Assembly: GCA_958009085.1 (NCBI GenBank)
Contig: OY253673.1
Span: 372,001-436,000 of the forward strand
Direction of reading: 5' to 3'
Source: Protoeuglena noctilucae
Taxonomy: Eukaryota
Length of the DNA stretch: 64,000 bases
The position numbers were made by a program, and so were the translations under genes. Below, piece by piece: positions 1 through 54,100 of the stretch (position 1 is its first letter; each line of letters opens with the position of its first letter). The notes under the pieces are model-generated. The model was not told where the DNA came from, did not search any database, and saw nothing but the letters and a program-made list of their open reading frames with translations.

Positions 1-1164
1 CTTGAGCTTGTTCTCCACGACGACCTTGAGCACGTCGTCCTCGGGCACGAACACCGTGTCGATGATGCCGTACTCCTTGGCCTCGTAGGGCGAGAAGTAA
101 CGGGCGCGCGCGATGTCCTGGCGGATCTGCTCCTCGGTGTGGTTGGTGTGCTTGGCCAGGAGCTCCACGATGTCGCCGGTGATGCGGCGCATCTCCATGC
201 GGTAGATGTCCAGGTCCGAAGCCTGCATCCCACCCTGCCGCACGAACCGGTTCATCGGCTCCCGGATCATGATGGACGCCGACGGCAGCGACGCGCGGTG
301 GCCCCGCTCCCCGGCGGCCAGCAGCATCGCCGCCTCGCCCCATGCGTTCCTGCGGGGACGCGCAGCCGGGTCAGGGATCTCGCTACGCGCGGCCAGGGTG
401 CGACGCGCGTCTGCGCCGGCGGCACGGCACTCACCCCACAGCGCACGTGTGGACCGGGGGCTTGATGAACTTCATGCAGTCGTAGATTGCGAAGGCCTCC
501 GCCTCGTAGCCGAGGCTCGGGCCGCCCTTGGTCACCCCCGTCGAGTTGATGTACAGATAGACGGGCTTGGTCGGGTTGTCGTATTGCAGGTACAGCAGCT
601 CGGCCATCATGAGCTCCGTGACTGCGCGGGGGACGCAGAGAGACTGTATTAGGATGCATGTGCGCGGTGGGGCGTCGGATGGTCGGCCGCTCGCGGGCCG
701 CTTGCCTGACGGCACCAAGGACATGCCCAGGTACACGATCCTCTCCTTAAACAGGTACGATGGGAGGTCCGGGGGGATCTGATCCGTCGCGTCGCCGCTA
801 AGCATGGGAATGACCTGCGGCGCGGAGGACGGGGACACGCGCACGTTCGGCGGGGCCCGCCAAGCCCCCGCATTGGCCACCCACGGCTCCCGGCGTCTGG
901 GCGACAGCCGTCGCGATTCGCGAGCGTGCATCGCGCGCAACGCCATCCAATCTAGGCATCCAGCTCGCTCCTTGCCCAGTTCGCGCGGGAGCGGCGCCTC
1001 AGGCTGCGAGCACTCACGCACTGAACGAGTAGGCCCCCGGAAGCCCGCGGGCATGCTCCCCGGCAGGGCTTGGCAGGCGCGATGAGCTGCCTGCGTCTCC
1101 CAGACAGACTGAGCGTCGCCTTCGACGACAGCGCGCCCCCGTGCGCAGCGAGCAGGCCCGCCAT
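1..1164 (-). CDS. clpR: Plastid ClpR (non-catalytic Clp protease subunit, ClpR4-like); spliced, 3' end runs off window start
   Basis: Exons give PPDLPSYLFKERIVYLGMSLVPSVTELMMAELLYLQYDNPTKPVYLYINSTG...AFAIYD...GNAWGEAAMLLAAG...YFSPYEAKEYGIID. This is a ClpP fold without the catalytic Ser motif. Transit-peptide-like N-terminus from ATG 1164. Confidence 0.9.
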
Positions 1165-1574
1165 ACTGCCACGCTGCCCCTATCCTGCCCAGCCGACGAG
1201 CTGCCGACAGCCAGGCGGCCAGATCCAGGTCAAGCAGCGAAGTGTTGGCGGATAAGAGCCGCGCAAGCTCGCACAACGCCGCGAGAGCCACCACAAAGCC
1301 CGTGGATAAACCAATGAGGGCGAGGCTTGGTGCGATGCAGGAGTGACCAATATCTGCATCGGCGGTCTGCCCGACGACTCCTCTCGCTGCTCCCGCCTGC
1401 CCGCCACCGATGTTGCACCGTCAGAGCAGTGCTGGGACGGAGACGAGTGCTTTGGAAAGGCTGTGGACGATGTTTATGAACAGGAGATTGGCCTGACCGA
1501 ACTGCGACTCTCGCTCAAGGCCGGTGGAGGCGTCTGGAAGGGCGAGCGCCTCAGCGTCTGTTTTCGCTGGGAAG

Positions 1575-4848: not shown

Positions 4849-6503
4849 TCACGCCTCTGCCTCCTTCTCGACGTTCTCCGTCGCAGAGATACGGTCCTTG
4901 AACAGAGCCGCCATCTCCTCCGCCCGGTCAAACACGACCTGGGGGTTGCGGATGAAGTCCCCGGGAGCCGGCTCCAGCTTCTTCGTCGACAGCGCGAACC
5001 TGCGGCGCGAGGGCGGCCGTGCTCTCATGTTGGATTTGCGCTTTAGTGCCACCCGCACACAGCCCTGCCTCTCGGGCACCCTTGCGCCAGCTCCTGGCCA
5101 GCCACCGCGTCCGCAAGGCCGCCAAGTTCGCCGCATGACACACATCGCTGAGCCCCTCACCGGTTCTTCTCCTTGTCCAGGCCCAGGACCATGACCTTGA
5201 TCTTGTCGCCGGGCGCAATGACGTTGTTGATGTTGGTGATGCGCTCGGCCGTCATCTGGGAGATGTGGAGGAGCCCCGAGATGCCGCCCATGTCGACGAA
5301 GGCGCCGTAGGGCTTGACGGCCGTCACGGTGCCCTCCACCACGTCACCGGGCGACATGCTCTGCTGGGCCGCGGCCCCCTCCTCCGACACGCCCTCCACG
5401 CGGCGGTTGGAAAGCACGAGCTTCTGCGACGTCTCGTCGACGTCGATGACCTTCATCGGGATGACCTGGCCCGTCATGTCGTCCTTGCTGTACATGGGAG
5501 ACAGCTGCGACACGGGCACGAAGCCCCGCACGCCCATCACGTCCACCATCACGCCGCCGCGGTTGGAGGCGTACACGGTCCCCTCGACGGTGATGTCCTC
5601 GTCCAGACACTGGCGGAGGCGCTGCCACACCACTTCCAGCTCCAGCTTGCGGATCGAGAGCGTCACCTCCTGCGAGGAGTTCGAGCCCACCACGACGAAT
5701 TCGCGAGTCGTCCCGGGGCTGATGACGTCGGAAGGCTCCGAAATCGGCGCGATGGACAGCTGCGGGGGCGGCGGACAAGCGGCGTCGGCGCGCGGGCGTG
5801 GGGAAGCGCCAGCCAGGGGGCTGCAGACCAGGCCCGGGCGGCGCGGAGACGCGGCCACCACCGCGGGCGCGGCTGCCCCGATCGCGCTCGCTTGAAATCG
5901 CTTGCCTCAGCGGTGGGCACGAACGCGGGCGCCTTGCCGCCGATGTCGACCATGGCGCCCCGGTTGTCCACCTTGAGGACGTTCCCGCTGATGCGCTCCC
6001 CGGGCTTGTACTGCGGGGCCGACGAAACGCAGAGCATATAGTGTGCAGCCAGCAGCGCGCGCGCGCGCAGAGGCCTCGCGACGGGCCTGAGCGAGCGCCT
6101 GGATTCGAGCAAGGGTGCGTTCCTGAGCCCACGCGCGCGCGCTCACCAACAAGTTGAAGTCGCCGATCAGCTTCTCGAACTCCTGGTACATGTCCGCCTC
6201 CGCAGGAGTGGCGAGGGCGCGAACGGGACCGGCACACCGGCGCGCCTGCGCTCGCGGGATGGTTGGGTTGACATGGCGACCGCGCCGCGCTGCGCGCGGA
6301 CCCCCGGGGCTGCGACCCTGCCGTGCAATACATTCGTCGAGCAGAGTCCTCTCGCTCCCATCAAACGCGGAACGGCAGCTGGGCGGTGACGCGCGCGCGG
6401 GATAAACAGCCGCCGGGCCTGGGGAAGCCGTCACCTGGACGGGATTGACCCGCACGGCGGAGGAGGCGGCCTTGGGCGCCGACAGGCGCATCGCGAATGC
6501 CAT
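4849..6503 (-). CDS. rps1: Plastid 30S ribosomal protein S1, spliced
   Basis: Three S1 domains ([69 protein letters not shown]). C-terminal [28 protein letters not shown]. Transit peptide [10 protein letters not shown]. Confidence 0.93.
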
Positions 6504-6943: not shown

Positions 6944-9900
6944 ATGGCCGGGCTGGGATGCACCACCGCGCGTGTGGCGGCGTGCAGGCATCGCGTGCCG
7001 GTCGGGGAGAGTTCGCGTTCCATCTGCGTGGGGTTCAGGAGGGCGCCCGCCCCCACCCCAGCGCGTGGTGCGCGGGGAGGGGCGGCGCAGGATGGGTCGT
7101 TGCATCCATCTCGCGCGGGCTCGCGCCGCGCTGTCCGGGCGTCTGCGCTGTTCGACAACCTGCAGCAGATGATCTCCGGCGACCCAGCTGAGAAGACGAG
7201 GAAGAAGTACTTTCCGCGCGTGGACAGGATCAACGGGCTGGAACTCACCATAAAGGTGCGCCCCTCGCGCCCCAGGGCGACGTTTCTGCCCGCTCGACTG
7301 CCCGCCCCATTTTGGATGTTGTCCGTCGCCCTGCTAGCCTTGCGGATTCCTGTCTACCACGAGCCAGCGCCCGCTCGAGCCCGGCACTGGGTGGCCAGTC
7401 GCTCGTGGCCTTCTCGCGCGCAGGAGCTCTCGGACGACGAGCTTCGCGCCAAGGCTTCCGAGCTTCGGGAGAGGGTTCAGGGCGGCGCGTCCCTGGACAG
7501 CGTGCTCGAGGAGGCGTTCGCGCTCGGTGAGCCGAGCAGCCGCGCGCCACCAAGCAGCTGCCCAACCCTAGCCCATCCCTCCCCGCCCACACACACACCT
7601 CCGCCCGCGCCCCCCCCGCAGTGCGCGAGGCGAGCTCCCGCGTGCTGGGCCTGCGCCCCTTCGACGTGCAGCTGATGGGCGGCATGATTCTTCACGAGGG
7701 TCAGATCGCGGAGATGCGCACGGGCGAGGGCAAGACCCTGGTGGCCGTCCTCCCCGCCTTCCTCAACGCCCTGGCCGGCAAGGGCGTCCACGTGGTCACC
7801 GTGAACGACTACCTGGCCCGCCGTGACTCGGAGTGGGTCGGCCAGGTGCACCGCTTCCTGGGTCTCACGGTGGGGCTGGTCCAGCAGGGCATGGACGAGG
7901 CGGAGCGCAAGCGGGCGTACGCGGCGGACGTCACGTACGTCACCAACTCGGAGCTGGGCTTCGACTACCTGCGTGACAACCTCTGCAACCGCCCCGAGGA
8001 GTTGGTGCAGCGCCCCTTCGCGTTTTGCATCATCGACGAGGTGGACAGCATCCTGATCGACGAGGCGCGCACGCCGCTCATCATCTCGGGATCCGCGGAC
8101 GCCCCGAGCGACAAGTACCAGAAGGCCACCAAGCTGGCGGGGGCGCTGGTGCTCGGGGTGCACTACACGGTGGACGAGAAGCAGCGAGCGGTGCTGATCA
8201 CTGATGAGGGCTACGCTGCGGCGGAGGAGGTCCTGGGCGTCTCTGACCTCTACGAGCCCCGTGCGCAATGGGCCACGTACGTCCTCAACGCCTTGAAGGC
8301 CAAGGAGCTGTACAAGCGCGACGTGCAGTACATCGCGAAGGGCGGGGAGATCATCATCGTGGACGAGTTCACTGGTGAGTGGCTGGGTTGACAATTGATA
8401 ACAGTTAGCGGGTGGTAGGCGGGTGGGGAGGGGCCCGGGTGTCAAGGCTTGTGTGGCGGGCAGTTTGCGTGGCCTCTGCGTTTCAGCTGACGTGTCAACG
8501 GGTCATTGAGTGGGCGATGAGAGTGTTTTGGTCAGACTGTTGCATGTGACACATGCAGCCATCGTCTAACGCGGCACCTCTCCCGCAGGCCGCACCATGC
8601 CGGGCCGCCGGTGGAGCGACGGTCTCCACCAGGCCATCGAGGCCAAGGAGGGCTTAGAGGTGAAGGAGGAGTCCATCACGCTCGCGTCCATCTCGTACCA
8701 GGCTTTGTTCCGCATGTTCCCACGGCTGGCGGGCATGACCGGCACGGCCGCCACAGGTGGGCGGCGGTGGGGGTGGTGGCGGTGGGGTGGGGTGGGGTGG
8801 TCCAGGCCACAAGTTGGGCTTGCGGCTGTGTCTGACCAGTGCGATCTCGGAACTTTGTTCCCGCATGGCCCTGCTGTGTCTGCCTGCTGGTCTCTCTGTG
8901 CACACGTCAGTGCCCATTCCAGCGCTGTGGCTACTGACGCCACTTGCGTTAGACTCAGCTCTCGCGGACTCGCTGCGATCGCAGAGACGAAGGAGTTCAA
9001 GGACATCTACGGCCTGGACGTGACGGTGGTGCCCCCCAACCGCATCATCCAGCGCGACGACTTCGACGACGTTGTGTTCGCCCGTCTGTCTGGCAAGTGG
9101 AACGCGGTGGTGACGGAGGTCAAGCGGATGAACAAGAAGGGCAGGCCCGTGCTCGTGGGGACCACGTCAGTCGAGGGGTCCGAGATGCTCGCACGTGAGT
9201 CGGGGTGGGGGTGGGATGGTGCATTGGGTGTGGGGAGCGCAGGTGAAGAGTATGGGCTGGGTTGGGTGTGCTGAGCGTGGTTGGGGTGTGGTCATGACGT
9301 GCAATGGTTGGGTGTGGAACTAGAGCTTTCAGCTACAGTATTGGTTGGGTCCTCATGAGCTGTTATCGCACGTGCCCTTGTCGGTGACTGGGTCACATGC
9401 GTGTGTGCCACGCACGGGAACCCTGACCCGCGACGTCGCCTGCAGAGATGCTGCGGGAGGAGGACATCACGTGCCAGGTGCTGAACGCCAAGCCCGAGAA
9501 CGTGGAGCGGGAGGCGGAGATCGTCGCGCAGGCCGGTCGCAAGGGCATGGTGACCATCGCCACCAACATGGCCGGTCGAGGCACGGACATCCTGCTGGGC
9601 GGCAACTCCGAGTTCATGGCCCGTTTGAAGGTCCGCGAGGCTCTGATGCCCCGGGTGGTGTCGCTGGTGGAGTCTTCGGACACCGTCCGACGCGTGCGGT
9701 CGTGGAAGGTCGCGGAGGGGCTGTTCCCCAGGGAGCTTACGGCTGAGGCGAGTGGGTGGTGGTGGGGTGGGGGTGTTGGTGGTGATAGTAGTGGTGGTGG
9801 TGGTCAACACATGGCTCAGGGTCTCACCTCACGTGGCTGCTTCCTTAGGTGCACTCGTGCACACGTGGTCATCCCAATCATCTTCCCTCTACCCCGCAGA

Positions 9901-11798
9901 CGAAGGCCCTGGTGGACGCGGCGGTGTCCAAGGCCGTGGATGCCTGGGGCGACCGTCGCCTGGAGGCCCGCCTTGCCGAGGACCGACTGTCGGTGGCCTG
10001 CGAAAAGGGGCCCACCGAGGACGCGGCTCTGCTGGCCATCCGGGAGGCGTTCCGTGCTGTGGAGAGGGAGTACGACGAGGTGGTTCGGAAGGACCGGGAG
10101 GAAGTGCGGGCGCTGGGGGGGCTGCACGTGATCGGCACTGAGGTGAGGGGCGGTGCGGGGGTAGGGGAGGGGGTGAGGGGGGGTGCAGGGGGTGGCAAAG
10201 ATCGGGAGGGGGTCATGGGGTGTGTTGGGATGTTGGGGAGCAACGTGGACGACATTGCAAGTGCTATGTTGAGGGCCAGAGTCCCGCCGCATCGACAACC
10301 ACCCACCTCACTCCTCACCCACCTCACTCCCTCTCCCTCTCCCTCTCCCTCCACCTCACAGCGCCACGAGTCCCGCCGCATCGACAACCAGCTCCGCGGC
10401 CGCGGCGGCCGGCAGGGCGACCCCGGCAGCACCCGCTTCTTCCTTTCCCTCGAGGACAACCTGTTCCGCGTGTTCGGCGGCAACAAGATCCAGTCCGTCA
10501 TGGAGATGTTCAGGGTCGAGGACCTACCGATTGAATCTGGCATGCTGACCAAGTCCCTCGACGAGGCTCAGAGGAAGGTCGAGGCGTACTTCTTCGACAT
10601 CCGCAAGAACCTGTTCGAGTACGACCAGGTCGTCAACACCCAGCGCGCTAAGGTCTACGCGGAGAGGAGGCTCGCCCTGGAGGCGCCGTCGCTCGAGGGG
10701 AAGGCGAGTCGGGGGATGGGGCGTGTCTGGGTGTTGGGTGGTGGGGAAGGCGAGTGGGGTGGATGGGGCGTGTGGGGGTGTCTGATGTTTGATGAGGCGA
10801 GTGGGAAGGAGATGAGAGATGGGAGGGATGAGGCATATAAGGTTGTTTGCTGAAGGGGAAGGCGAGTAGGGGGATGAGGTGGTGGGGGGTGTGGGGAGGA
10901 CATGGTGGGCGGGGTGGAGTTGGGGAGATGAGGCGTGGGTGGAGCGAGGGGTTGGCTGGCCTCGCCACACCATGGACACTGGTCTTACCTTGCTTGACCC
11001 CATCCCACCCTGCTTGACCCCATCGCATCTTGCTCAACCTCTCCCCACCCTGGTCGACCCCGCCCCACCTGCCTCGCTCCCTCACAGATGGTGGAGTACG
11101 CAGAGAAGACCGCGGACGACATCCTGGAGGCCAACGTGAACCCATCCGAGCCCGTCGACAGCTGGCGCCTCGACTCCCTCGCTTCTAAGATGATCCAGTA
11201 CTGCCCCATCATGGCGGGCGACGGCGTGACGGGTCTCTCCGGCGCCGACCTGCGAAAGGCGGCGGGGGCGGGTGGTCCCGCGGGGTTCGAGTCCCTCCGG
11301 GCGTACATGCGCCAGGCGTCCGTGCAGGCCTACCAGATGAAGCGGAGCTTCGTGGAGGGAGTGGAGACGGGGCTCATGCACGAGGCTGAGAGGTTCTTCT
11401 TGCTCCGTAACATTGACCAGCTGTGGAAGGACCATTTGCAGGCCATCAAGTTCATCCAGCAGGCCGTCGGGCTGCGCGGCTACGCCCAGCGGGACCCGCT
11501 GACCGAGTTCAAGCTGGAGAGCTACAACCTGTACCAGGAGATGATGTCCCAGGTGCGCAGGAACGTCATCTACAACGTGTACGTGTTTGAGCCGCTCAAG
11601 GCCAGGCGCCTGGGGGAGGCGGAGAAGGGTGCGGAGAAGGGTGCGGAGAAGGGCGGGGAGAAGGGCGAGGGGGCGGGGTCGCGCAAGGGTGGCAAGGGGC
11701 GCAAGGCGGGGGGTGGCGCGAGCGAGGGCGAGGGGGAGGGCGGGGAGGCAAAGGCGGAGAAGGAGGGTAGCAGCGTGGGCAAGGCCACGGCCAGGTGA
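6944..11798 (+). CDS. secA: Chloroplast (thylakoid) SecA translocase ATPase, spliced
   Basis: [89 protein letters not shown]. Transit peptide from ATG 6944. Confidence 0.97.
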
Positions 11799-12272: not shown

Positions 12273-15200
12273 CGCCCCCTGCAGTGCGTTCTGCAGCTCC
12301 GTGGCCACGCCGTCGCGCCCCCTGCGCAGTCGGTCCAGGACGCTGCTCAGGGCCACTAGGTCCTCCGAGCGCCGCTCATCCAGGGCGGCGATGCGAGACA
12401 GGGAGCTCCTGAAGCGAGAGGGGAGGAATGAGGATGCGGTGGAGATAGATAGTGGTCGTGGGGGTGGGCAGTGGGTGGCAGGCGGGTCACGGTCATAGCC
12501 ACAGCCACTGGTCAGCAGTCGAGGGAGAGAGCCTCGCCGGTCCTCGCCGCTCCCTCCCCTCAGCCCTCACCTCAGCCTCTCCGCTTCCTGCCTCGCCCGC
12601 GTCCCGTTGGCCACCTCCTGCGCCACGTCTGCCCTCAGCTTCCCCGCCTCCTCGCTCAGGTGCCGGGCACGCGCCACTGCCTCGTCTAGCTCCTGCTGCA
12701 GCGACCTGTGGGTGCGGAGCCACAATAAGGATGTTCCTTTCGCCCATCCACCACCCACACTTCCAACCCACTCGCCACAACCCTTACCACCCCACTCGCC
12801 ACCACCCATACCCCCACCCTCATCCCAACCTTCACCCTCACCCATCATCCCACCACCCTCACCACCACCCCCACCCCACCCCACTCGCCTGATCTTTGCC
12901 GCATCCTCGGTCGCCCTTGCTTTGGCCTCCTCTGCCGCTGCCCGTGCCTCTCGCTGCACCTCCTCTCCCCACCGCTGCAACCGGTCCCTCTCGACCTGCA
13001 GGCCTCGCCTCTCCTCTTCCCACCGCCGCATGTCCTCCGTGTGCAGGCCCACCTGCCGCGCCAACTGCGCCACCTTGTCTGACGCGTCCTTGCATCGAGA
13101 CTCCAGGTCAGCCACACGCGCCCTGCGACGAGAGAGGGTGGCGCGCGAGGGTCATGGAGGGACTTGGGCCGACAGAACTGGGCGAGATGCAACACACTCG
13201 CCACACCCCGCACACCCGCACATCTCACCTAGCCTTAAACACCCACCACCGTCACCCCTCATTTAAACACAACTCACCTGGCCTCGCACAGCTCCTCCTC
13301 CGCAGCTATCCGCGCCCGCTCCATGGCCAGCCGCTCCTCCCGGGCCTGCCTCTCCCGTTCCTCCGCCATGCACCGATCCCTCTCGTCACGCTTCCTGCAC
13401 AGATAGCACAGATGCCACGGCTCAAATGCAGACTGAGTCACTCACCAAACACCCAGCGTGAACCTTACAGCAACGCACTCCCTCTCGCCACCCCTCGCTC
13501 ACCACCGCTTCCTCACCCACACCAGCGCCGCCCCCACGCTCACCTCCGCTCCTCAGCAGCCCCCTCCGCCATCCTCGCCGCCTGCTCCTTCCGTTCTGCC
13601 TCTGCCGCCCTCAGCTCCCAGTCTTTGGCCACCGCCCGTGCCGCGTGCAGCTCCCTGCCCAGTGCCTCCACCTCCCCCTGCACCTCCTGCCCCCGGGCCT
13701 GCAGTCCGTTCCTCTCATTCACCGCGTGCTTCCACGAGGCGTTCGCCAAGTCCAACTCACGCCTCAGCTGCAGACACAGGGAAGTGGCGGGGGACATGAG
13801 AGCGGAACATGCGACGCCGCACCTGGTTCAGTCAGTCAAGCGCGACATGCATGCACAGCCTTTGCATTACAGGACATCCACCCACACACATAGACGGAGC
13901 TCAGTCAAGCAACCACACCCGCCTGCACCCACGCTGCTGCCCTTGCCGTCGCTGCGCTGCAAATAGCTGCTGCTTGAAACAAGGATGGGATCCCTTCCCA
14001 CGCCACCGCGTTCCCCACCTTCCGCACTTCGGCCTCTTGCTCTGCGGCCTCTCCCCACGCCACCGCATTTCGCACCTTCCGCACTTCGGCCTCTTGCTCT
14101 GTGGCCTCCCTCTGCCGCGCCTCTGCCGCCCTCAGCCACTGCCGCTCCTCTGCTTTATACTGGACCAGGAGAGCCACCAGGGCCTCCTTGCTGCGACGCG
14201 AACGAAACGACGCTTCATTGAGAGTCCAGCAGCGCCACCATGGCACCGACAAGGGTCAGTGCCTACGCTTGCGATGAACGGCAGCCATCTGTCGCCAACA
14301 GCACCGTCGATGGCCAAGCAAGGCTAAGGACTGCCCTGGCAGAAGAAAAATCTCAGCACATGCCACAAGGCCCCGGCTCACAACCCCCACCTGAGACGCG
14401 CCAAGTCCTCAGCAGCGGCAAACTCGGGCACAGTGACAGGGGCCGCCGAGCGTGCGAGCGCGGCAGGCGGAGGCGGCGTGCACTCCACCGCACCCACGGA
14501 CGCCGGCACCTCCCATTCCGGGCCCACGCGGACCTCAGCGCAGGTCGACCCTTGCTCCCCCGTCACAATCGTGCTCCCCAGCCCCGACGATTCATGCCAC
14601 ACCCCCGCAAGCGCCGCATCAACTCCCCGCGCCGGACCCGCGCGGCCCTCCTGGCCCCCGCCTGGCCTTGGCGACACCGCCGGGGACGCGGTGGTCCGCC
14701 GTTTCTTGGAAACCCATCCCTCGGCGTCTGGGGCATCGTGCGGCGGCAGCAGCCGGCGACTCGGACCCGGGCCCGGCGTCCCCGCGTCGGGCAGTGCGGT
14801 CCGGGGCGGCGATCTCCGCCCGGCGCCGGCGTGGTCGCCCCCCGGTGCCCCTCGCGCGGCCTTGGCGGGGGTCGCGGCCGGGCCAGCGCCCGCGGGGGCG
14901 AGGGCGGCCCCCCGCCCGGGAGATCCCGCGCCTCGCGGCTGCGCCGGGGACGACTGCGTGGTGGGTAACGTCAGCGGCGTCCCCGCGGGGCCGAACCCCA
15001 CGTGTGCGGCAGCCTCGGGTCGGCCGTCCCGGTCCCGGTCCCTCTGCGCGCCCTTGGCAGCCGCCGCCAGCCGCGCCGCGTGCATCTCCGCCGCCTCGCT
15101 GAAAGTGTACGTCAACCGCGCCTCCGCCTGCAGCGCCCCGGTCGTCTCGCCCCCAACCGCCACCAGCTGCCCCCGCCACACCGTCCCCGTCTCACGCTTG

Positions 15201-16752
15201 CCCCGGGACCCCTCGCTGCCCCCGAACAGCACCAGTTCCCCGCGGCCCAGGTGCGCCATGGCGTGCTTGGCCAGCGCCGGGCTCCGCTGCGGCGCCTGCA
15301 CCGGCACCCACTCAAACGCCCCGCCCCGCTGCACCAACAGCGCCGCCTCCCGGGCCCTCGCGCCGCCCCCACCGCCCCAGAGCAGCACTCCTTGCAACCC
15401 CTCGCCGGGGCGATGGTCCGCGGGGACCCACACCGCCGCGGCCGTCGCGTGCGATCGGGGCGCAGGGAGTATCCCGCCGACCCGCCTCGGCCGGACCCAC
15501 GCCAGGGCGTGCCAGGGGTTCCCGTCCGCCCCGGGCGCAGCGGTGCCCAGATCGAGCACCGCGATGCTCTGGTCCTCGCCCAGCAGGCCCTTGGCGCTCT
15601 GGCCGCTCAGGAAGACGACTCGGGAGCCGAGCGTGGCGGCGGCATGGAAGCAGCGGGGACGGAAGGGCGGGCCGCTCGGAGGCATCGGGTGCAATGGCAG
15701 GACAGTGCGGGACTGGGTGTCTGCGGGAGAGGAGTGGGGCAAGACAGTGTGACACTCGGTGGGGTGTGCGGGAGGAGAGTGAAAGCAGACGGTGGGGTGC
15801 GGTGGGAGCGTGGCGAGAGTGCGGGCTGCGGATGGCCGGAGGGCGGCTCACCGACGGCGAGGAGGTCGTCGAGGTGTCCTTCACCGGGGCGGAAGCCGCC
15901 GTGCACGAGAATGACGTGGGGCTGCGGGGCAGGGCACGTGAAGGGCAGTTGCAGTGCAGCAAGCCATGACGTGCAGCGCGGGCGATGCCTCCGCGACTCA
16001 CCATGTGCGGATGGAGGACCGCACAGTGACCGAGGCGAGACAGGAGCCGGACGTCTCCTCGCAGCTCTGGCGACTCCCAGGAGCGTGAAAGGACGTCCAG
16101 GACGACGCAGGCGGGCTGCGTGCACAGCTCCGCGCCGCCATCCCCCTCCGCGCGCTTGCCACCGATCACCCATATCGATGTGTCACCGACGAGCGTGGCG
16201 GTGTGGCTCGAACGTGCCTGCCGGGCACGGGAGCGGAGGGGGTCTGCGTTCTGGACGCTCGTGGGGCCAATCCCGCGAGCCTGGCGCGGAGAAACGGCAA
16301 CAGTTGGGATCATCGGACACGTGCAGAGCGTGGTGAGGCATAAACGCCCGGCCAACGAGGCTCAAAGGAGCGGGGAGCGGGTCAGCGGGGCCAGCGCGCT
16401 TGAGGTCCCGTCGCGAGCAGCCGCGCACTGCGACGAGTTCCCGCTGTGCACATCGTCAGATTATCACCCTGCCATCGTCGCGAACGCGTCGCACTGCGAA
16501 GGACGGCGACGGTGGCGAGCCGGGGGCTGACGTCGCAGTCACCTCGAAGGCAACCCCCGCTGTCTCGACGGTGCGCCAGGAGCCGGAGTTGAGGTCCAAG
16601 CAGGCTACGTCGGAGAGAGTCGAGCCGCCGCGGACCCCGCCGATGACCACCAGCGCGTCGCCCAGCAGCGTCCCCGTGTGTTGGCTCCGCGGCTTGCCTG
16701 CGTGCTCGTGGACGTCGGTCCAATCGACTCGGACCCGAGCTAAGGAACTCAT
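12258..16752 (-). CDS. Kelch-repeat beta-propeller protein with low-complexity linker and C-terminal coiled coil, spliced
   Basis: Kelch motifs PRSQHTGTLLGDALVVIGG, RSSHTATLVGDTSIWVIGG, RCFHAAATLGSRVVFLSG, PRSHATAA and LAKHAMAHLGRGELVLFGG. Heptad E/R/A-rich exons at 12.3-14.2 kb end at TGA 12258. Confidence 0.78.
13997..14108. repeat. 57-bp tandem duplication spanning an exon end and splice donor
   Basis: cccacgccaccgc...accttccgcacttcggcctcttgctctg at 13997 and 14054. On the minus strand it translates as EQEAEVRK|GT twice. Confidence 0.85.
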
Positions 16753-37846: not shown

Positions 37847-39283
37847 TCATGGGGACCCCACCGTGCGCTTGGCACTGGCGAGTGTGTTTTGCAGCAACAT
37901 GGCGATGGTCATGGGGCCCACGCCCCCAGGCACGGGGTTGATGCCGGACGCCACGGCCTTGCAAGACTCGAAGTGGCAGTCGCCCACCAAGCGGTACCCA
38001 GCTTTTTTGGATGGGTCGTCCACTGGGTTGGTCCCCACGTCAATCACGACCGCCCCAGGCTTCAGCCAGTCCCCTCGGATCATCTCCGGCCGGCCCGCCG
38101 CGGCGATCACGATGTCTGCGCTGCGCACGGTGGATGCGAGGTCGGCCGTGCGCGAGTGGGCGATCGTGACGGTCGCATCGCGCTTGTTGAGGAGCATGGC
38201 GGCCGGCATGCCGACGATGTTGGACCGCCCCACCACCACGGCGTTCTTCCCCCGGATGTCCACCCCGCAGCGCTCGAGCAGCACCATGCAGCCTGGGCGA
38301 CACGGGACGGGAGAGCAGGGTGCATTAGTCTCAGCTGGGGTCGCCGGACCGTGAAACCCTGTGCCGGCGCGGCACAGCGTCCTTACCGAGAGGGGTGCAG
38401 GGCACAAACAGCGGCTCCCGGCCCTTCATCGCGAGCCTGCCGATGTTGAGCGGGTGGAAGCCATCCACATCCTTGTCAATGCTAATCTCGGCCAGCACCG
38501 CCGCCTCGTCGATGTGGCCGGGGGGGGGCAGCTGGACCAGGATGCCGTGCACGGCGGGGTCGGAGTTCAGCTCGCGGACCTGCGACACACCGCGGCGCGC
38601 TCGCCACCTGAGACGTGGCCCAGGCGCGACGTCCCGCTCCTGACGGTGCGATGCCACATCTGTTACGCCGCGATTGGGACCTAGCAAACGCCCGTATCGT
38701 CTTCAGCTTGCATGACAGTCGAGGCACTCGCCTTCGCCAGCAAATCCTCCTGGGTGACGCTCTCAGGGAGCTCCGCCTTGACGGAGTGGATGCCGACCTC
38801 CTCGCAGGCCTTGTGCTTCATCCGGACGTACGTCTGGGAGTCCTTGCGCTCGCCCACGATAACCACTGCAAGTCCCGGCACCTGAGTATCGCGCAAGCAG
38901 GCGCCGTTGCGAGCGGGGCCCCGGTCGTCGTAGCAATACGCAACAGTCACTGGTTTCCTCACCTTGCCCGTCCGCTCCTTCATCGCAGCTACCTCGGCAG
39001 CAATCTCCTGACGAATGGCATCTCCGACCGCCTGCAGGGGTGGAAGGAAGTCACGCAGCGGCGTCAATCGCGAGGGATTAACCACGGGTGTGGAGCCAAG
39101 CCAGCGTGGCTGCGATGGTTCACCGATGGCGCTTTCGACCACGCCAATGCCTCGTCTGCTTGCGGAAGCGGCTGAGTGGCAGCGGTTCGGCGTCCACCGC
39201 GCCGCCCGGCATGCGCAGCGCACCTTGCCGTCGATGACGTTCCCATCGCGGAGAAACGGGCACTTGGGGTCCACCAGGGCCAT
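37847..39283 (-). CDS. folD: Bifunctional methylenetetrahydrofolate dehydrogenase/cyclohydrolase, spliced
   Basis: [72 protein letters not shown]. Confidence 0.96.
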
Positions 39284-40870: not shown

Positions 40871-43800
40871 ATGCTCGAATGCGACGCGTGTGGAACGCAA
40901 TTCGATACCCCGGCCAAGCTCGCCCGGCATCAGCAAAGATGCCCTGCGCTGTGGGGCTGGAGATATGGCGAGGAGAGCCGCCAGGAAGCACCCCGCCCCG
41001 CCGCCCCACACGAACACTATGTCTCTCCGTCTCTGCGAGGCTCGGACGGGCTGGCACGCGACAGCGCCAGCGCGGGACCAGACCAAGAACTGCGGGAGGA
41101 AGACGGGACGGCGGACGTTGCTGCGGGCAGTGATGGCGAGAGCGAAGATGTAGGACTCGCGTGGCTCCACTACGCCGACACGGACGTGGACATGGACGTG
41201 GACATTGACTCGGAGAGGGGTGAACCGCCCGAGAGCGCCGGAGCGCATGATGCGCCCCAAGAGGACGCTCCTGGAGTCTCCTACCTTCCTGCGCCCGGGG
41301 AGTACGAACCGCTGAAGCTGCCGGAGGACCTGGAGGCATGGCGGGCCAGGAGCAGGGACAGTGACGATGAGTACCTGAGCCAACTTGAAGCAGGGGCGCA
41401 GTTCATGGCATCGCTGACGGCAGCGCATTTCGATTGCTTCGTGAAGCTGCGCCCCGACATCCGCGACGACCTTCTCGACCTCGGGCGCTCCCACCGCACG
41501 TTCCACACCTCACTCAACAGCATCCATGGCCAGTACGAGGTGCGTCACGCCGCGGTGCCGCTTGTGTCGAGGGCCTCGGACGCGGCCGAGGGGGCTGACG
41601 CCAACCAGTGCACGCACGGCCTGCAGGTTTTGCAAGAGGAGGGCAGCACAACCATCATCTACCAAACGATAACGGTGCTGAGGGACATGCTGGTGCACAC
41701 GGAGCAGATCAAGCCCAAGACGCTCGTTAAGTTGATGCGAGACTTCAGCGAGGCACGGGAACGGTCACGCCAGGCGCGGGCGAGACCACATGAGACGCAT
41801 CCCAGCATCCACGAGAAGCTCACCTTCTCCCGGGCGAAGGGGTATAGCGACATAGCCGAGGCTGTCGCTGGCAAAGTCCGCCCCGAGCTGCACGCCCGGC
41901 TGCTCCTCGTGCCCGTCGCGTACAGCATCGACGGGGTGGAGATGACCAAGGGCGCATCGACGACGCCCATCCACATGCACCTCCTGTCGCCTTGCAAGGC
42001 CGTGAGGACAGGGACGCCGCGAACCGTGGCCACCGTCGAGTCCATGAAGGCGAGAGGAGGATTGCCGGCGTTGCAGCCCACACGTCCACCACCACGCCGC
42101 GTGTATGAGTTGTCGCTCGAGGCCCCCGCAGGTGTCCGGGATCACTCCGGGGTCACAGGCAGACCTGAACAACAGAGAGGCCATCCAGCGGCGGCTGGCT
42201 GCCGTGGACCGGCAGCTGATTGGCGTGGCGAGGTCCGGTGGGGTGTGGATGACCCTCCCCGACGTCGGGAGAGTCATCGTCTTTCCCGTCTTGGCGGCGC
42301 AGCTGAACGACATGATGGCCAACTCGTCCACGCTGGCCGTCAGGTCGTGCCCGCTGTGCCTCCAGGATGACTGCCGCACGCCTCGCACCGTCGCGCTGCA
42401 TCGCCTCCAGGTGCAGCACATCCTGCGCTTGAGGAGGGACGTGGGGACGGCCAGGGCCAACGAACAAGCCAGGGAGAGCAAAATTCATCCTGTGGTTCCT
42501 GCCCTGTCGTACTGGGACGAGTTCGGGTCGGACTTGTATCAGGGCCAAGCACCTGACCCCATGCACACCGTGGAACTGGGAATGTTGGGCAAGACTGTTC
42601 CCTTCTGCATACTGACCGTCCTCTACAACAACGCGGCAGCGGGAGAGTCTGCGACAAAGGCAAACGCCCTCTTGGCTGCGTTCGCATCGATCATTGCGGA
42701 TGCCAAGGTGAGCTGCAGGTCAGGCAATGGCGTGCGTTGCCTGCAGTGGCGCCGCAGCTGCTCGGTATTCACCTGGCATGTCCATCGTCGTGTGGGTGGA
42801 GCGCAGGCCCCGGCATGGATCCACGCCCGTCCGTGGGGCGAGACCTTCCAGATCGTGCTGAGCCTCGTGGACCCGTTTGGGAAGATAAAGGCGTACGAGG
42901 CGAGGTTCTTGATCCAAGCTCTGCCTTTCGCCCTCGTCGAGCTCTTCTCTCGAGGCGAGGCCGACAGTCAGCGCTGCGAGGGCATCGGGAGGAGCTGCGG
43001 GTATCGCGATGCGGGCCGGGGAACCCCGGGAGTGTTTCCCCACCACCACATCCCTTGCAGAGCCTACGGGCAGCAAAGACGTGCACGACGAGAGGGTTGG
43101 GCTCGTGGCCGTAGCCCTGGCATGCCTTCAGCTCTATGCCGAATGGTCCCTGGAGAGCGCCACCATCGCAGGGGCGCAGGCGGCGGACGCGCAGCTGAAT
43201 AAGGTCCTCCACGTGAGGCCTTCTCCAACACCAGCCCCATCGTTCGCTGCCCCTTACTCACTCTGGAAGCCTTGTCGCTGCCGTGTCGCCGCAGGTCGTG
43301 CTCAAGACGCTGCTGCGTGGCCACGAAATCGTCCGCACGGAGAAGCCCCTCTTCAGCAAGATCGAGAACAGCCAGAAGTGCCACGCGCTTTCGCATTTCC
43401 CTGCAGTGGTGGCGAGGAACGGCTCCATCATGTTGGGCAGCATGAACGACGCCGAGTGCATGCACAAGCCCATTGCCAACGCGCGCACGAACGGCAAGGG
43501 CGACGTGCAGGTACAGGCAAGAAGCGCCGCCCAGCGTAGGCGACGCGGGGAAGCCCACGCAGGACGCGTTTCTTGCGACTCACACGTCTCGATGCGGTCG
43601 CACGGCGCTCGACCCGCGTGCCATGCTGAGCCGCGCTGGACTGACCCCCGAGCCCTGTCGCAGGCGAGCACCAGCGTCATCTCTCAGAGGGCGGCCTCCG
43701 TCATCAAGAGCCGGGCGAGGGCGGAGCAGCCGGTCCCGTCCCAGCCCGAGGACCAAGTGAAGGGCGTGAAGACCGTCCTGAAGAAGAACGACCTGTGCAG

Positions 43801-46261: not shown

Positions 46262-48583
46262 TCAGTTGTCCTCTGCCGCTCCCTCGCCCGCGGCGCTACC
46301 CCCGTGCTCGCGAACGAGCGCCGACATCTCCTTGGGGAAGCGCCGTGCCACCGTGGCGCTCTCGCGAATGTCCCACACCGACGCCAGGCCCTTGGCGCCA
46401 CCAGCCGCAAGCAGGAGGGGGTTAGCCGGGCAGAACTGCATGGCGAAGACGGCACCCGTGTGGACGTCCTCGGTCGCCAGCAGTCCCGGGGCGGCGCTGG
46501 ACACGTCCCAGAGCTTGACGCGCTTATCTGTCGACGCGGTAGCCAGGAGGCCCGGGATGGCAGGGCAGAAGCTGCGACGAGGTAAGCCGGAGTCACTTTG
46601 ACAACAGCGGGTGCGGATGCAGTCTCGAGGGGTCGATGGAAGCACCTATTACGGCATGTGTACCACTGGCGCAAGCGCGGTGCTGGAAGTCTCGCCTCAG
46701 GGCAGTCGTGGCCTTGTCGTGCGCCTGGAGGCGGTACATGGGCTTCGAGCCCGCCCCGAGACGTGCGTCGAAAGCGCATACCATGCCATCCTCGGACGAC
46801 ACCAGAAACACGGTCGGCTGTTCGGGGTGCCACGCGATTGTCTCCACGTCCGCTGCGGGGCAGGCAGCGGGGGCGTCACAACTGCCCCGCAAACCGCACG
46901 GTCCTTCCAAAGTCATCTCCGCATCTGCGCGGCTCCTCACCCGTAACCTCCCACCGCAGCTGGTTGTGCTCCGGGTCGCGCATGTCCAACACGTACGCCC
47001 GGTGGTCAAACCCGCCCGTCGCCAGGACGTTGGCCTCGGCGGGGTTCCAAAGCACCGACTGCACCTTGGACACGTGATGCGTGAGCGTCTGGGCGCACTC
47101 GCACTTGGCCAAGTCCCACACCTGCGGGGTGTGCAGGTGGGGCGGGTATCACATCACGCCCACCGCAACCTTGGGCGGGGCAGCCGAGTCCCGGCATTGT
47201 CGCGAACCCACCTTGACGGTGGCGTCCGCCGACCCGCTGACCAGCACGTTTCGCACGTGGGAATTCCAACTGAGCGACATCACGGCGTCCTCGTGCGACC
47301 CCGGCTGGAACACCAGCGTGGCTTTCTTGCCCTTCTTCTTGCGTTTCTTCTTCTCCTCTGCGCTCCGCTCCTCGTCCACGCCCCCCAGCACGACCACGGG
47401 GTCCACGGCGTCCACCACATCCAGGTCCCACACCTCGATACCCGGGGCCATCGACCCCACCGCAGCCAGGGATCCTGGCGCGTCGGGCTCCTTGGGGTTG
47501 AACCCCATCCACCCCACGCTGCGGCGGCACGGACCCGCGGCGCTCATCTCCCTGCCTGCAGCCGCACGCAGCCACCGCCCCGCCGTGCCACGCCTGGCAG
47601 CGACATCAAAAGTCCTCGCCAACCCTCACCAGAGCGGGAAGGCCGGCAGCATGATGTCGTGGTGCACGAACAGGTTCCCGCCCTGCACGTTGTCCGCAGC
47701 CTCGTAGACGTACACCTCCAAGTGCCCCACCTCGTCCTCATTGCGCGCCGCCAGAAACACCAAGTCGGTCGCCCGCAGCTCCATCTCGTCCATCTCGCTC
47801 TCGTCGTCCCCCCCCTCGATGTTCGGGTCGTCCTCCGGGTTGTCTGCACGCAAGTGCAGTGCTACCCACATCGCAATCGTAACGCCCACCACGGCGCTCT
47901 GCTCGACCAGCCCACTCGCCCACAAACTATGCTCAGTGTCCACCAGGCCACGGCCCACATGCGCGGCTCTCACCGTAGTACGTGCCCACCCCAAACAGCC
48001 TCTCCTCCACCTCCTCTTCGTCATACGCATCCATGTCCAGCTCCTCCATCATGTTCTCCAGAGACCTCCCATTTTTGTCTTTCTGCTGCCGCTTCGTGGA
48101 TGCGATCTGCGACGCCACCAACCTCGCGCGGGCCACCTCGTCCTCCGACCCGCTCCCTGCGTGCAGCGGGGACCCCCCCAGGGTCACGCAGGGGTGCCGA
48201 CAACGAGTTACGCGAAGCCAACCCCCTTCGCCTCACCCTCTGCAACGTCGGCATCAGACATGGACTCCTCCTCATCCTCAGAGTCCTCGGAAGGCTCCCT
48301 GCGAGAAACAGTGCCAAGGTCGTAGGGCACGAGGCAAATTTTCCCGGCCGGCGATGCGTGGCAAGAGAGCGGCGGGTGCATTGCAATGCTACTCTCTGTC
48401 GCAACTAAGCGACACGGTTTGGCAGCGATACGGTGCGGGCTGAGGCGGGCTGAGCGTGACGTACCTGGCTGGGCGCTTGTGTGCAGCTTCCCGAATCGCC
48501 CTGAGCTCCTCCTCCGTCGGCTCCGCGCGCTTAGGCGTCCTCGCCGCTGCCCCCGGGGGTATCCATGCGATGGAGGATATCAT
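46262..48583 (-). CDS. PWP1: Periodic tryptophan protein 1 (WD40, ribosome biogenesis), spliced
   Basis: MISSIAWIPPG, ELDMDAYD, LEVYVYE...NLFVHHDIMLPAFPL, IEVWDLDVVDAVDPVVVLGG, WD repeats, LATASTDKRVKLWD. Confidence 0.92.
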
Positions 48584-50976: not shown

Positions 50977-51104
50977 GCGCGGGCGTAGGTGGGGCCCCAC
51001 GCGGCCCGACATCAAGCGATTCTGTAGAGCTGCGCCCGTCACGCCGTATAGTCATTGAAGGGTACCAGCACGCCTCGTCACTGCTACCAGGAATGGTCAA
51101 TGCA

Positions 51105-54100
51105 TCAATCCCCCTCAGACGCGTCCATGCCACTTCCGTCCATGTCCGCATCGGAGCCGGGCCCCATGCCCTGCAGCGCAAGTAACAGGAGTTATATGAG
51201 CCCATGTCCAATGGCGCTCTGCCTGTGGTGGGTGATGGGCGAGCAGAGGCCAAGCCGCACAAAGGCAGGGAGCTCGCCTGGCTCTCCAGGTCGATCACGA
51301 GCACGCGGTTGCCGGATCCCGAGACGAGGCACAGCCCCCGCTGCATGCCCACCGACAGCATCAGCCCCGGTCCCTCCAGGTCCAGCCGCAGTTCCCGCGA
51401 CCCCAGGGCTTCCCAAGGGAGCAAAGCGCCCTGAGAAATACACGCGTCCGCGGCATCTTCACCCTGCGTACGCGGCAAGCACGCGAGGGCGGGTCAGGCG
51501 TCGCAGTCAGGCTGAACGTGCCGCGCATGTTTTTGCTCGCAGCACTGTTGGGCTGCTCCACCTGCTCGGGGCCGACTGGGACCCAGTCGTCTCTGCTGAG
51601 CGCGACGAGGGCCAAGAGGGAACCGCCGTCCCGGGCCTCCAAAAGGACGGCGAGGCTGGGGCCACGGTACCACGCCATCGACGCCAGGCGCGTGCTTTGT
51701 GGGAGGAGCAGGAGGGTACCGGTGCGAGCCGCGAGGTCCATCACGACGATTCCGGGGACGCCGAGCGCCAGGGGCAGGCACTCTTGTGCGAACAGCGGGG
51801 CGTCGATGCCATGTGATGCGTGTGCAGGAGAGTGGGGCACGAGGAGACTGGACGGGACAGGCGAGCCTTGCAGATCCAGCTCCCCTGTGGGGATGAACAT
51901 GGACGCCTGCGCGGCACGTGGCGAGGGCCGCGTGAAGGGAGACATGAGGCGGTGAACGACAGGTGAGACGGACTGCGATGCAGGGTCTCACCTCGAGCGT
52001 CACGGGAAGGACCCAGGTGGCCTCCATCCGGGCAAGCAGATCGAGCGCTGAGTCGAGTAGCTCGTGCAGTCCAGCGCTTGTGAGTTTCGAACCGGAACCA
52101 GTGACCCCGCACGCCGCCAGGAGAGCGTCTGGGGCAGCGCCGTGGTGGCGACAGGGCTTGCCCGCACCCTCGAGGTCGTGCTCGATACCGGGCTCGCAGA
52201 AGAGGCCCCGGGGCCGGAGGAAGTCCACCAGCAGCTGCGCATCCACCTGCAATGCACCGATATCTTGGCAGCTTTGGCACGCAGAGAGCGGGCTCAGTCG
52301 GCAGTTGCGACCTGCTACTCTACACTGCTCGGCCCATGCTACTGCTGATGCTGTGCAGCTAAGCGCCATCACTCGTCATCACCTCGAATGTCGACACGTC
52401 GACCTCTTCTGTCACGTGGATGGCGCCCAGACGGTACGCGAGCTGCCACAGCCACGAGAAGAGCGCCGTGAAGCCCAGGAGCAAGTCGGCCAGGCGCGCC
52501 TCCAGCGCCGCTGCCCGTGCATGGAGCGCCCGACACAGGGCCCGCGTCTCCCAAAGGTCGACCCCCGCGGCCCGCGCTGCGTGCCCAGAGATACAGGACG
52601 CTGGCATCAAATGGGCCTCGTCACCATGTTGAAGCGTAGACGATTACAAGGTGGTATCTAACCATCAAGATGGGGCTCGGACGAAGCCTGGGGTCCGGTG
52701 TGAGACTCGCCTGCATCGCCGCGCCACGCCTCCCCCAGTGCGCCCAGGTCGGGCAGCAGCACTGCCAGGTTGCGGACCTGCCAGGCGAGCGAGGTCATTA
52801 CGGCCGTGTGCATCGTCTCAAGCGCCCCCGTCACCACCCGCGCGAGCTGGCGGATGGTCACGCCGCCCGCATCGCTCTCCAACCTGAGGTGCACAGGGCA
52901 CATGCCCTTAGTGGGGTGGGTGCAGGGCCTACACCCAGCCCATGACACCCCTGCAAGCCTTAACGACACGTGCACTATATACCGATCGATTCATAACAAT
53001 CGTTGGGCCCTCACCATTCCCGGAAGGTGGCCTCAGGAACCCCTCCCACGAGCGCCTGCCTCAGCACATCGGCGGTCTCTGAGAAGGGGTCGCCGGGATC
53101 GAAAGAGCCCCGGATACTCTTGCACGCTGCATGCAGCATCTTGCGAGGCGCCTGCCACGCCTGGCTGACCGTCCGCAGCGCCCCCTGGGTGGCAGCCAGG
53201 GCCGCACGCAGCGCCAGGGTGTGTGCGGCAGCGGCATGCGCCTGAGAGGAAAGGGCCTGGAGGGCCGCCGTGGAGAACACGGCGACGTCGCTGCCGCGCG
53301 CCGTCGATCGCACGGACACGAGGCGGCCGAGGTCGGCAGACAGCTGCGCATCATGACGCGCCGACAACTGGGGAGCCTCCGCGCGCCCGGACGTGCTCGC
53401 GAGGGGCGAGTCTGTCCGCCCGACCCGGACCGCCCCCAAAGCCAGGAGCTCCAGCGACCCCTCCGCGCCAGCCGCGGTCAGGACGGTGAAGCCCTGCCCA
53501 GCACACATGTCCTCAAAATCGGGGTCTAAGGGCGGAGGTGCCAGGGGCCCTGCCTGCTTGCCTGCGTTTGCAAGGGTCACAACAGCGCATGACGACGTCG
53601 GAAGAACCCGGAGTAGATCAAGGGGCTCGGCATCGCGCCCCCACGCCCCGGCTCGCACCGGCAGCGTCGTCGGACGGCTCAGCCGTGAGCATCGCGCACG
53701 GGCGTATCAAAGACTCTGTCGTGCGTGGGGGCGACGTCTTGGGCGCAGCGTCTGTCCAGCTGAGGCTGAGGATGGCCGCGTAGGGTTCCTGCCCGGGATC
53801 CACCAAATGGGTGCCCGACTCGACCCGCACGATCGTAGGGCCCTTGTCCGTGCCCAGCGCGAGCAGCTTGCCGTCCGGCCGCCAGCAGCACGACACCGCG
53901 GACACGCTGACGCTTGCCGTCTGCTGCCACGTCATCCGGTGGATCGTCACCGCATTCCCAGCGGCGTTGGTCACTGCCACGAGGTCCATGCTGGGACACC
54001 ATGATGCCCCTGCGTGGGGAGGCGGCAGGGCGCGCGATGTCATCAACACTTCGTACGCTATCCTTCCTTGCGGCAGTCGCCCGCGAAGCTCATGAGAGCA

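What the first reader, a model, noticed from the sequence alone, without database searches (positions are those of the whole stretch)
622..51277. Exceptionally frequent GC-AG introns across unrelated genes
Seen: conserved reading frames are best restored using AG|GCRAG-type donors in many genes. These are clpR (622-705), rps1 (5760-5905), secA (9748-9899, 10704-11087), eIF3c (31020-31108, 33110-33479, 33738-33851), NCL (35761-35893, 37070-37202, the latter splitting the invariant LTFSQ|VYGA), folD (38580-38731) and the transposase (42050-42131), with FAM210 and APC4 probable. That is 11 or more in one 64-kb window. Established: GC donors are normally about 1% of introns. Inference: a lineage-wide relaxation of 5' splice-site recognition, compensated by a strong exonic AG and +3..+5 RAG, possibly driven by GC-biased mutation or a U1/U6 variant.
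Basis: partly seen in the sequence, partly recalled or inferred. Interest (0 to 1): 0.72.

Follow-up and report, generated by a model that had tools for sequence, protein, structure and literature searches.

The report
One in six introns starts GC
In this marine green alga about one intron in six begins with GC instead of the usual GT, apparently because old introns swapped T for C wherever the rest of the splice signal was near perfect; other GC-rich algae are already known to do this.

Summary
All 11 named introns have GC..AG ends. Three are spliced exactly there in RNA contigs, seven more beat every GT alternative tested against homologs; only the transposase one is unproven. A self-trained gene finder with GA/GG decoys of 1820 introns GC (17.3%) in 920 kb from 23 chromosomes. 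The host groups with a pedinophyte. U1, U2, U5 and U6 pairing regions are canonical, so the snRNA-variant idea fails, and relaxation is not general: GC is 49% of AG|GxRAG donors but 0-14% elsewhere. No GC intron has a homologous copy (0 of 315), and orthologous introns start GT in relatives, so these are T-to-C substitutions in old introns, not introners. GC-rich donors are published for Micromonas pusilla (22%), Aureococcus, Emiliania and Chlorella (6-8%), and this scan noted the same kind on another genome. New here: a pedinophyte, a non-introner route, and GC outnumbering GT 63:20 at the best U1 matches.

The parts
622..705 (-). GC-AG intron, clpR4 (CAG|GCAAGC)
   Evidence: Best of 9 variants on homolog profile, +15 bits; intron-free identical protein P0525 spans the junction; relatives P0408, P0410 have an intron at the same place
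5760..5905 (-). GC-AG intron, plastid rps1 (GAG|GCAAGC)
   Evidence: Best of 5 variants against relative's protein; orthologous intron in L063/L064 starts GT
9748..9899 (+). GC-AG intron, secA (GAG|GCGAGT)
   Evidence: +11 bits over best of 32 GT variants; colinear with homologs; P0002 has an intron end at the same place
10704..11087 (+). GC-AG intron, secA (AAG|GCGAGT)
   Evidence: +11 bits over best of 46 GT variants; read-through of relative P0002 continues with Val, i.e. a GT donor at this position (inference from codon)
12706..12888 (-).
   Evidence: Gene-finder only
16698..17070 (-). Doubtful GC-AG intron (CCG|GCGACT); probably a false join of two genes
   Evidence: Gene-finder only, weakest donor score
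20054..20145 (-). GC-AG intron, FAM210-like (AAG|GCGAGG)
   Evidence: Gene-finder; exons hit PF06916 weakly and in order
20383..20495 (-). GC-AG intron, FAM210-like (GAG|GCGAGG)
   Evidence: Gene-finder only; upstream exon uncertain
31020..31108 (+). GC-AG intron, eIF3c (AAG|GCGAGA)
   Evidence: RNA joint in X1 and X3, absent from DNA run
33110..33479 (+). GC-AG intron, eIF3c (AAG|GCGAGT)
   Evidence: RNA joint in X1 and X3; used despite in-frame CAG|GTGGGG 45 nt downstream
33738..33851 (+). GC-AG intron, eIF3c (CAG|GCACGG)
   Evidence: RNA joint in X1
35761..35893 (+). GC-AG intron, NCL Na/Ca exchanger-like (AAG|GCGAGT)
   Evidence: +12 bits over best of 8 GT variants
37070..37202 (+). GC-AG intron, NCL (CAG|GCGAGA), at an ancient position
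   Evidence: +101 bits over best of 3 GT variants; 17 genomic read-throughs from other organisms stop at the same codon, 13 starting Val (GT), 4 Ala (GC)
38580..38731 (-). GC-AG intron, folD (AAG|GCGAGT)
   Evidence: +9.5 bits over best of 32 GT variants; RNA piece ends exactly at its acceptor
42050..42131 (+). Probable GC-AG intron, Plavaka-like transposase (AAG|GCGAGA)
   Evidence: Gene-finder; a frame change is needed here; no sense RNA joint listed; in-frame GT alternative at 42002
42955..43060 (+). Probable GC-AG intron, transposase (GAG|GCGAGG)
   Evidence: Gene-finder only
43517..43663 (+). Possible GC-AG intron, transposase (CAG|GCAAGA)
   Evidence: Gene-finder only; GT alternative 6 nt upstream
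46572..46695 (-).
   Evidence: Gene-finder; joint not among those listed
51171..51277 (-). GC-AG intron, APC4-like (CAG|GCGAGC)
   Evidence: Gene-finder only
52577..52710 (-). GC-AG intron, APC4-like (CAG|GCGAGT)
   Evidence: Gene-finder only

Best explanation
These are ordinary major-spliceosome (U2-type) introns whose second base changed from T to C by point substitution. A standard U1 snRNA reads them: losing the +2 pair is tolerated only when the rest of the helix (-2 A, -1 G, +3 R, +4 A, +5 G) is intact. In permissive contexts +2 is close to neutral and drifts towards the genomic C:T balance, which gives about 17% overall. Shown: splicing at GC, the genome-wide share (model-based), canonical snRNAs, context dependence, old positions with GT in relatives, no introner signature. 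Inferred: direction T-to-C, the GC-pressure driver, near-neutrality.
For: 315 of 1820 predicted introns GC, in 46 of 46 segments; held-out 340 kb gives 115 of 706, and still 101 of 706 with a 1% prior. Finder recovers 11 of 11 RNA-seen introns exactly without training on that stretch. Context: AG|GxRAG 259 GT/252 GC; other contexts 0-14% GC. With T restored, GC donors would be the strongest U1 binders (median -11.0 vs -8.1 kcal/mol for GT; as they are -6.4). Mismatch counts are narrower than independent columns (0 mismatches 20 vs 125 expected; 2 mismatches 1036 vs 682). Within the permissive context, GC donors sit in GC-richer introns (0.629 vs 0.606, p=0.002). Same length, intron GC, place in gene and acceptor score as GT introns; no clustering by gene. 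Orthologous donors are GT in relatives for rps1 (read directly) and secA-10704, and in 13 of 17 NCL read-throughs. Outside the window, Prp8 has a GC intron exactly between human K1505 and A1506. Human GT>GC changes are tolerated at 15-18% of donors, those with stronger U1 pairing (10.1101/479493, abstract); mammals show 298 GT-to-GC vs 40 reverse events (PMC3488318, passage).
Against: GC content alone does not explain it: Micromonas RCC299 (64% GC) has 2.7% (PMC3033335, passage). Host-gene GC4 trend is weak (p=0.07). The genome-wide share rests on an ab initio model, with RNA for only 20 kb; with equal decoy priors 17 of 707 calls were GA/GG, so a few percent of GC calls may be false. Direction is not rooted: only one orthologous donor was read as DNA, and L063 lacks the other orthologous introns (folD, secA x2, NCL x2), so recent gain of those is not excluded by that relative. 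The best contexts exceed the intron-interior baseline (OR 1.5-2.2), which strict neutrality does not predict. Spliceosomal proteins were checked for presence only, plus 293 residues of Prp8.
Confidence: 0.68

Rival explanations
1. A trans-acting change (U1-C, Luc7, Prp8, Prp28, or an snRNA modification) lowers the cost of +2 C in this lineage, and GC pressure only fills the opened space.
For: Equally GC-rich algae differ tenfold (PMC3033335 passage: 22.2% vs 2.7% in two Micromonas); those authors suspected proteins or base modifications. RNA contigs are fully spliced across three GC introns, one against a competing GT donor.
Against: U1, U2, U5, U6 pairing regions canonical; one U1 gene only; U1-C, SNRNP27, METTL16, Prp8 present; the two Prp8 exons aligned show no gap and mostly conservative changes against human and green-algal chains; GA/GG donors absent and GC limited to near-perfect contexts, as in humans.
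Confidence: 0.2
2. GC donors were brought in by introner transposons, as in Micromonas pusilla and pelagophytes.
For: Introners with GC donors are published (PMC4540971, 10.1101/2021.10.25.465678, passages). A close relative lacks most of the 3' introns of secA, NCL and folD. Old introners would have lost similarity.
Against: 0 of 315 GC introns have a homologous intron in the sample (14 of 1501 GT do, those inspected being tandem gene copies); no excess of terminal inverted repeats or target duplications over GT introns with the same AG; no length peak; positions shared with other organisms for rps1, clpR, secA x2 and NCL-37070. Only 3.5% of the genome was compared.
Confidence: 0.05
3. GC donors are selected as weak, regulated sites for alternative splicing or intron retention.
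For: GC donors are enriched in alternatively spliced genes of human, worm and Arabidopsis (PMC3488318, passage).
Against: They occur in 174 of 312 multi-exon genes without clustering, including housekeeping genes; only 7 of 315 have a nearby in-frame consensus GT competitor; RNA contigs show the spliced form (contigs drop rare forms). Run X2 holds unspliced pieces across both a GT and a GC intron, so it says nothing specific.
Confidence: 0.05
4. Artefact: assembly errors or frames forced by the annotator.
For: Ten of the 20 window calls rest on the model alone.
Against: RNA joints, homolog scores, decoy controls, raw motif excess; DNA run X5 and unspliced X2 pieces show no other letter at the eIF3c donors they cover.
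Confidence: 0.02

Closest known systems
Micromonas pusilla GC-AG-rich introns (Iwata & Gotoh 2011, PMC3033335; passages seen)
   Same: Green alga, about 66% GC, 22.2% GC-AG introns, canonical U1 5' end; origin called an enigma.
   Different: M. pusilla carries 3566 introners (10.1101/2022.06.06.494994, passage), some with GC donors (PMC4540971, passage); whether they account for its 22% I did not test. Here no introner signal was found.
Chlorellaceae: Chlorella sp. 7.7% (PMC3033335), Micractinium conductrix 8046 GC vs 106289 GT and C. sorokiniana 7067 vs 117336 (PMC6310983 supplement 7, rows seen)
   Same: Intron-rich, GC-rich chlorophytes with raised GC donors; probably the same substitution route (my inference).
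   Different: 6-8% against 17% here; different class; I saw no context analysis for them.
Pelagophytes Aureococcus anophagefferens (14-17%, or 39.6%) and Pelagomonas calceolata (14%) (10.1101/2024.10.30.620910, PMC3033335, 10.1101/2021.10.25.465678; passages seen)
   Same: Similar share, attributed to high genomic GC.
   Different: Stramenopiles, intron-poor, with introners that carry GC donors and inverted repeats.
Emiliania huxleyi GC-dominated donors (PMC4028052; passages seen)
   Same: 65% GC genome, GC donors validated by RNA.
   Different: 56-65% GC plus about 4% GA donors, i.e. a much broader relaxation; haptophyte.
Mammalian GC-AG U2-type introns (about 1%; PMC3488318 passage, 10.1101/479493 abstract)
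   Same: Arise by GT-to-GC conversion and need strong U1 complementarity elsewhere.
   Different: Seventeen times rarer.

Membership tests
U2-type GC-AG spliceosomal introns | Removed from mRNA with GC 5' and AG 3' ends | tested here: met
   Three RNA joints readable only as GC..AG, absent in DNA run
U2-type GC-AG spliceosomal introns | Flanks complementary to canonical U1 5' end, stronger than at GT donors | tested here: met
   A-2 0.92, G-1 0.98, A+4 0.90, G+5 0.98; U1 canonical
U2-type GC-AG spliceosomal introns | Lariat and branch point used by U2 snRNP | not testable with these tools
   Only a weak branch-motif excess, alike in GC and GT introns
U12-type (minor) introns | GT/GC-ATCC 5' signal | tested here: not met
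   0 of 1816 donors
Introner elements | Many introns share sequence | tested here: not met
   0 of 315 GC introns with a homolog over 40% of length in 920 kb
Introner elements | Terminal inverted repeats or target-site duplications | tested here: not met
   Distributions like those of GT introns with exonic AG (200 GC vs 912 GT)
Introner elements | Positions absent from relatives | tested here: inconclusive
   5 positions shared with other organisms; folD-38580 and NCL-35761 absent in the intron-poor relative L063, which also lacks GT introns
Variant-snRNA splicing systems | Compensatory change in U1 5' end, U6 ACAGAGA or U5 loop 1 | tested here: not met
   All canonical, one gene each found; RNA-family counts are lower bounds
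GC-AG-rich genomes of GC-rich algae | GC donor share far above 1-2% genome-wide with genomic GC near 65-70% | tested here: met
   17.3% (CI 15.6-19.1) by model; 63-69% GC in the 29 segments measured
Pedinophyceae (host lineage) | Groups with a named pedinophyte | tested here: inconclusive
   ClpR4 FastTree: clade with Pedinophyceae sp. YPF-701, support 98; one gene only; the secA tree held no named pedinophyte

The most novel reading that the evidence does not exclude
There is an upper limit on U1 pairing in this alga: at the best-matching donors C at +2 is favoured over T, so GC is not merely tolerated but acts as a release valve against over-stable U1 binding. AG|GxGAGT is 63 GC to 20 GT and (A/C)AG|GxGAGT 44 to 7, above intron-interior baselines (OR 2.1 and 4.2; p 0.016 and 0.0004) and, for the second, above the bases just after donors (OR 3.0, p 0.004); raw counts agree (82 vs 29). 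Against: contexts were chosen after seeing the data, the first is not above the +7..+9 baseline (p 0.12), and neither exceeds the fourfold-site ratio of 4.55 clearly.
Probability: 0.25. Interest if true: 0.7.

Novelty: new member of a known kind. Interest (0 to 1): 0.42.

Why it matters
The origin of GC-AG-rich genomes was called an enigma in 2011, and the best-known cases are confounded by introners. This genome seems to reach 17% by plain substitution with canonical snRNAs, so the cost of +2 C can be read off by context (log odds about -0.8 in AG|GxGAG[ACG], about -3 after loss of one more pair, about +0.4 to +0.8 in AG|GxGAGT), which makes the mutation-drift versus altered-spliceosome question directly testable. 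Practically, 174 of 312 multi-exon genes sampled carry a GC donor, so GT-only annotation would mis-model over half of them. It is not a new splicing system.

Tried and rejected
snRNA variants: none. Introner families, inverted repeats, target duplications: none. CpG-linker idea (GC donors create CpG): no CpG periodicity, CpG o/e 0.85 in introns, and GC is relatively commoner before A than before G. The 36:9 excess of GC at AG|GxAAG matches the neutral TpA-poor ratio (3.3-4.5) and was dropped as evidence for selection. Stronger acceptors or branch points at GC introns: none. Minor-intron signal: none. First hand-built gene models had off-by-one errors and were replaced. The secA tree did not finish its careful search and could not place the host. 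The metagenome scan gave 7 loci, of which 2 (one organism) were close relatives, 1 a distant homolog with introns and 4 uninformative. Pfam gave no hit for 5 of 6 transposase exons or 3 antisense frames. Literature searches found no report of GC donors in Pedinophyceae; the YPF-701 preprint main text has no 'splic' or 'GC-AG', its supplements and subscription journals were not seen.
Full report
Observation. All 11 named introns have GC..AG ends at the stated coordinates, each after an exonic AG. I laid three metatranscriptome runs and one DNA run on window 30200-50199 (4 of the 12 runs listed). Of 37 joints, 15 were listed. Three of them, in eIF3c, can only be read as GC..AG: 31020-31108 and 33110-33479 (X1, X3) and 33738-33851 (X1). 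Eight others are GT..AG in host genes, three are minus-strand joints in the transposon and one is a DNA-only deletion. No intron joint was listed for the DNA run. At 33110 the RNA ignores an in-frame GT donor of equal model score 45 nt downstream. For folD, an RNA piece of 193 letters ends exactly at the acceptor; the donor side was not listed. X2 showed only unspliced pieces, across GT and GC introns alike.

Homology. Profiles built from 48-60 homologs each rank the GC model first for 6 of 6 introns tested, by 9-101 bits over the best in-frame GT alternative; rps1 agrees against a relative's protein. An intron-free database protein is identical to the spliced clpR across its GC junction (P0525; that it comes from mRNA is my inference). 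The transposase intron stays unproven: a frame change is needed, but an in-frame GT donor lies 48 nt upstream and the RNA contigs there come from the opposite strand.

Genome-wide share. The genome has 26.3 Mb in 27 contigs. I sampled 920 kb from the 23 large contigs. Without any model, AGGCGAGT occurs 56 times against 25 expected, AGGTGAGT 20 against 16, and the GA and GG decoys are at or below expectation (580 kb). A self-trained gene finder seeded with 15 introns from outside the RNA-tested stretch and equal priors for GT, GC, GA and GG converged on 912, 200, 0 and 2. It recovered 11 of 11 RNA-seen host introns and 11 of 11 named introns exactly, and GC of 106 in the window, four of the 106 being doubtful calls in a LINE region. 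On 340 kb held out it gave 115 GC of 706; 111 of 707 with equal decoy priors (17 decoy calls); 101 of 706 with a 1% prior. Pooled: 315 of 1820, 17.3% (CI 15.6-19.1), present in 46 of 46 segments; 306 of 1787 without the segment holding a transposon copy. This is a model-based estimate, not a read count.

Anatomy. GC introns match GT introns in length (120 vs 118), interior GC, place in the gene, acceptor score and branch motifs. They differ at the donor: GC makes up 49% of AG|GxRAG donors (252 of 511) but 5% when -2 is not A, 7% when +4 is not A and 3% when -1 or +5 is not G. With T put back they would be the strongest U1 binders. Donors with no mismatch are rare (20 vs 125 expected) and two mismatches dominate, a narrow pairing budget. 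The phase-0 excess (200 of 315) is shared by GT donors of the same context (162 of 259).

Machinery. One gene each was found for U1, U6, U5 and U2, all canonical in their pairing regions. U1-C, SNRNP27, METTL16 and Prp8 are present; the models of U1-C, METTL16 and Prp8 each contain a GC intron, the last exactly between human K1505 and A1506. Protein-level changes were not excluded.

Origin. The ClpR4 tree groups the host with Pedinophyceae sp. YPF-701 (support 98, one gene). A syntenic relative (L063, L064) keeps mainly 5' introns; its rps1 intron at the position of 5760-5905 starts GT. Read-through proteins show a GT start at the position of secA 10704, introns at secA 9748 and clpR 622, and 13 GT-type against 4 GC-type starts at NCL 37070 among 17 read-throughs from other organisms (22 rows listed, 1 own and 4 spliced set aside). 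No GC intron has a homologous intron in the sample (0 of 315), and repeats at their ends are not in excess. So at least five GC introns are old, and GT and GC interchange at the same position. Against this, L063 lacks folD-38580, both secA and both NCL introns, along with GT introns, so it cannot date them.

Mechanism. The most likely reading (0.68) is substitution under GC pressure, filtered by U1 pairing. Against neutral intron sites, C at +2 is mildly disfavoured in AG|GxGAG[ACG] (log odds -0.8 to -1.1), strongly after one more lost pair (about -3), and at or above neutral in AG|GxGAGT (63:20, +0.4 to +0.8). Among permissive donors, C goes with GC-richer introns (p 0.002) and weakly with host-gene GC4 (p 0.07). 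The excess at the best sites is the boldest lead, a cap on U1 pairing (0.25), but it depends on the baseline and on contexts chosen afterwards. A changed spliceosomal protein remains the main rival (0.2), since GC content alone does not predict the share across algae.

Comparison. Plants average 1.2% GC-AG (PMC6310983, passages and supplement rows). But 22.2% in Micromonas pusilla, 39.6% in Aureococcus and 7.7% in Chlorella, all with canonical U1, were published in 2011 (PMC3033335, passages); 14-17% in pelagophytes (10.1101/2024.10.30.620910, passages); 56-65% in Emiliania (PMC4028052, passages; lead from earlier finding e1-7379173, checked here). Introners with GC donors are known in Micromonas and Pelagomonas (PMC4540971, 10.1101/2021.10.25.465678, 10.1101/2022.06.06.494994, passages). 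Nine searches found no report for Pedinophyceae; the YPF-701 preprint (passages) and PMC12574857 (passages) do not treat nuclear splice sites in what I saw, and preprint supplements were closed. PMC10639083 (passages) added nothing on GC shares.

Verdict. Real, genome-wide and well read by the first stage; a new member of a known kind, with the highest share I found for a green alga without introners. Interest 0.42.

Noticed in passing
window 39447-45024: A 5.6-kb Plavaka-like DNA transposon with 15-bp terminal inverted repeats and 24 near-identical copies. RNA contigs of X1 and X3 are spliced on the strand opposite the transposase, at three GT..AG introns (41621-41823, 42649-42772, 42974-43261): a spliced antisense transcript, possibly regulatory. 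The three antisense frames tested have no Pfam hit.
   Followed up: partly
L063 and L064 (2141-11566): A syntenic relative keeps almost only 5'-proximal introns (secA 1 of 8, NCL none in the last 521 codons), the pattern expected of cDNA-mediated intron loss in a sister pedinophyte lineage.
   Followed up: partly
L068 356-461 and 554-640; proteins P0166, P0198, P0214, P0216: Another, unrelated-looking alga (61% GC) has two GC donors among about seven in one NCL fragment, and four other read-throughs start GC at the LTFSQ intron: GC donors may be much commoner in unannotated green algae than catalogues show.
   Followed up: partly
window 21000-29300: A non-LTR retrotransposon on the minus strand with a long open frame (23906-29041) that by eye holds endonuclease, reverse transcriptase and RNase H parts; next to it a tRNA-like gene at about 29903-29985.
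   Followed up: no
genome-wide sample: Acceptors are unusually stereotyped (C-5 0.74, G-4 0.81, C-3 0.97) while branch-point consensus is weak; GTAAG donors are nearly absent (A+3 5%), in line with TpA depletion.
   Followed up: partly
window 40642-43902: The DNA run holds a form of the transposon that skips 3259 bases, i.e. internally deleted non-autonomous copies.
   Followed up: no
window 10724-10900: The secA GC intron repeats its own donor word (AAGGCGAGT-like) several times downstream of the true donor; which copy is used was not tested by RNA.
   Followed up: no
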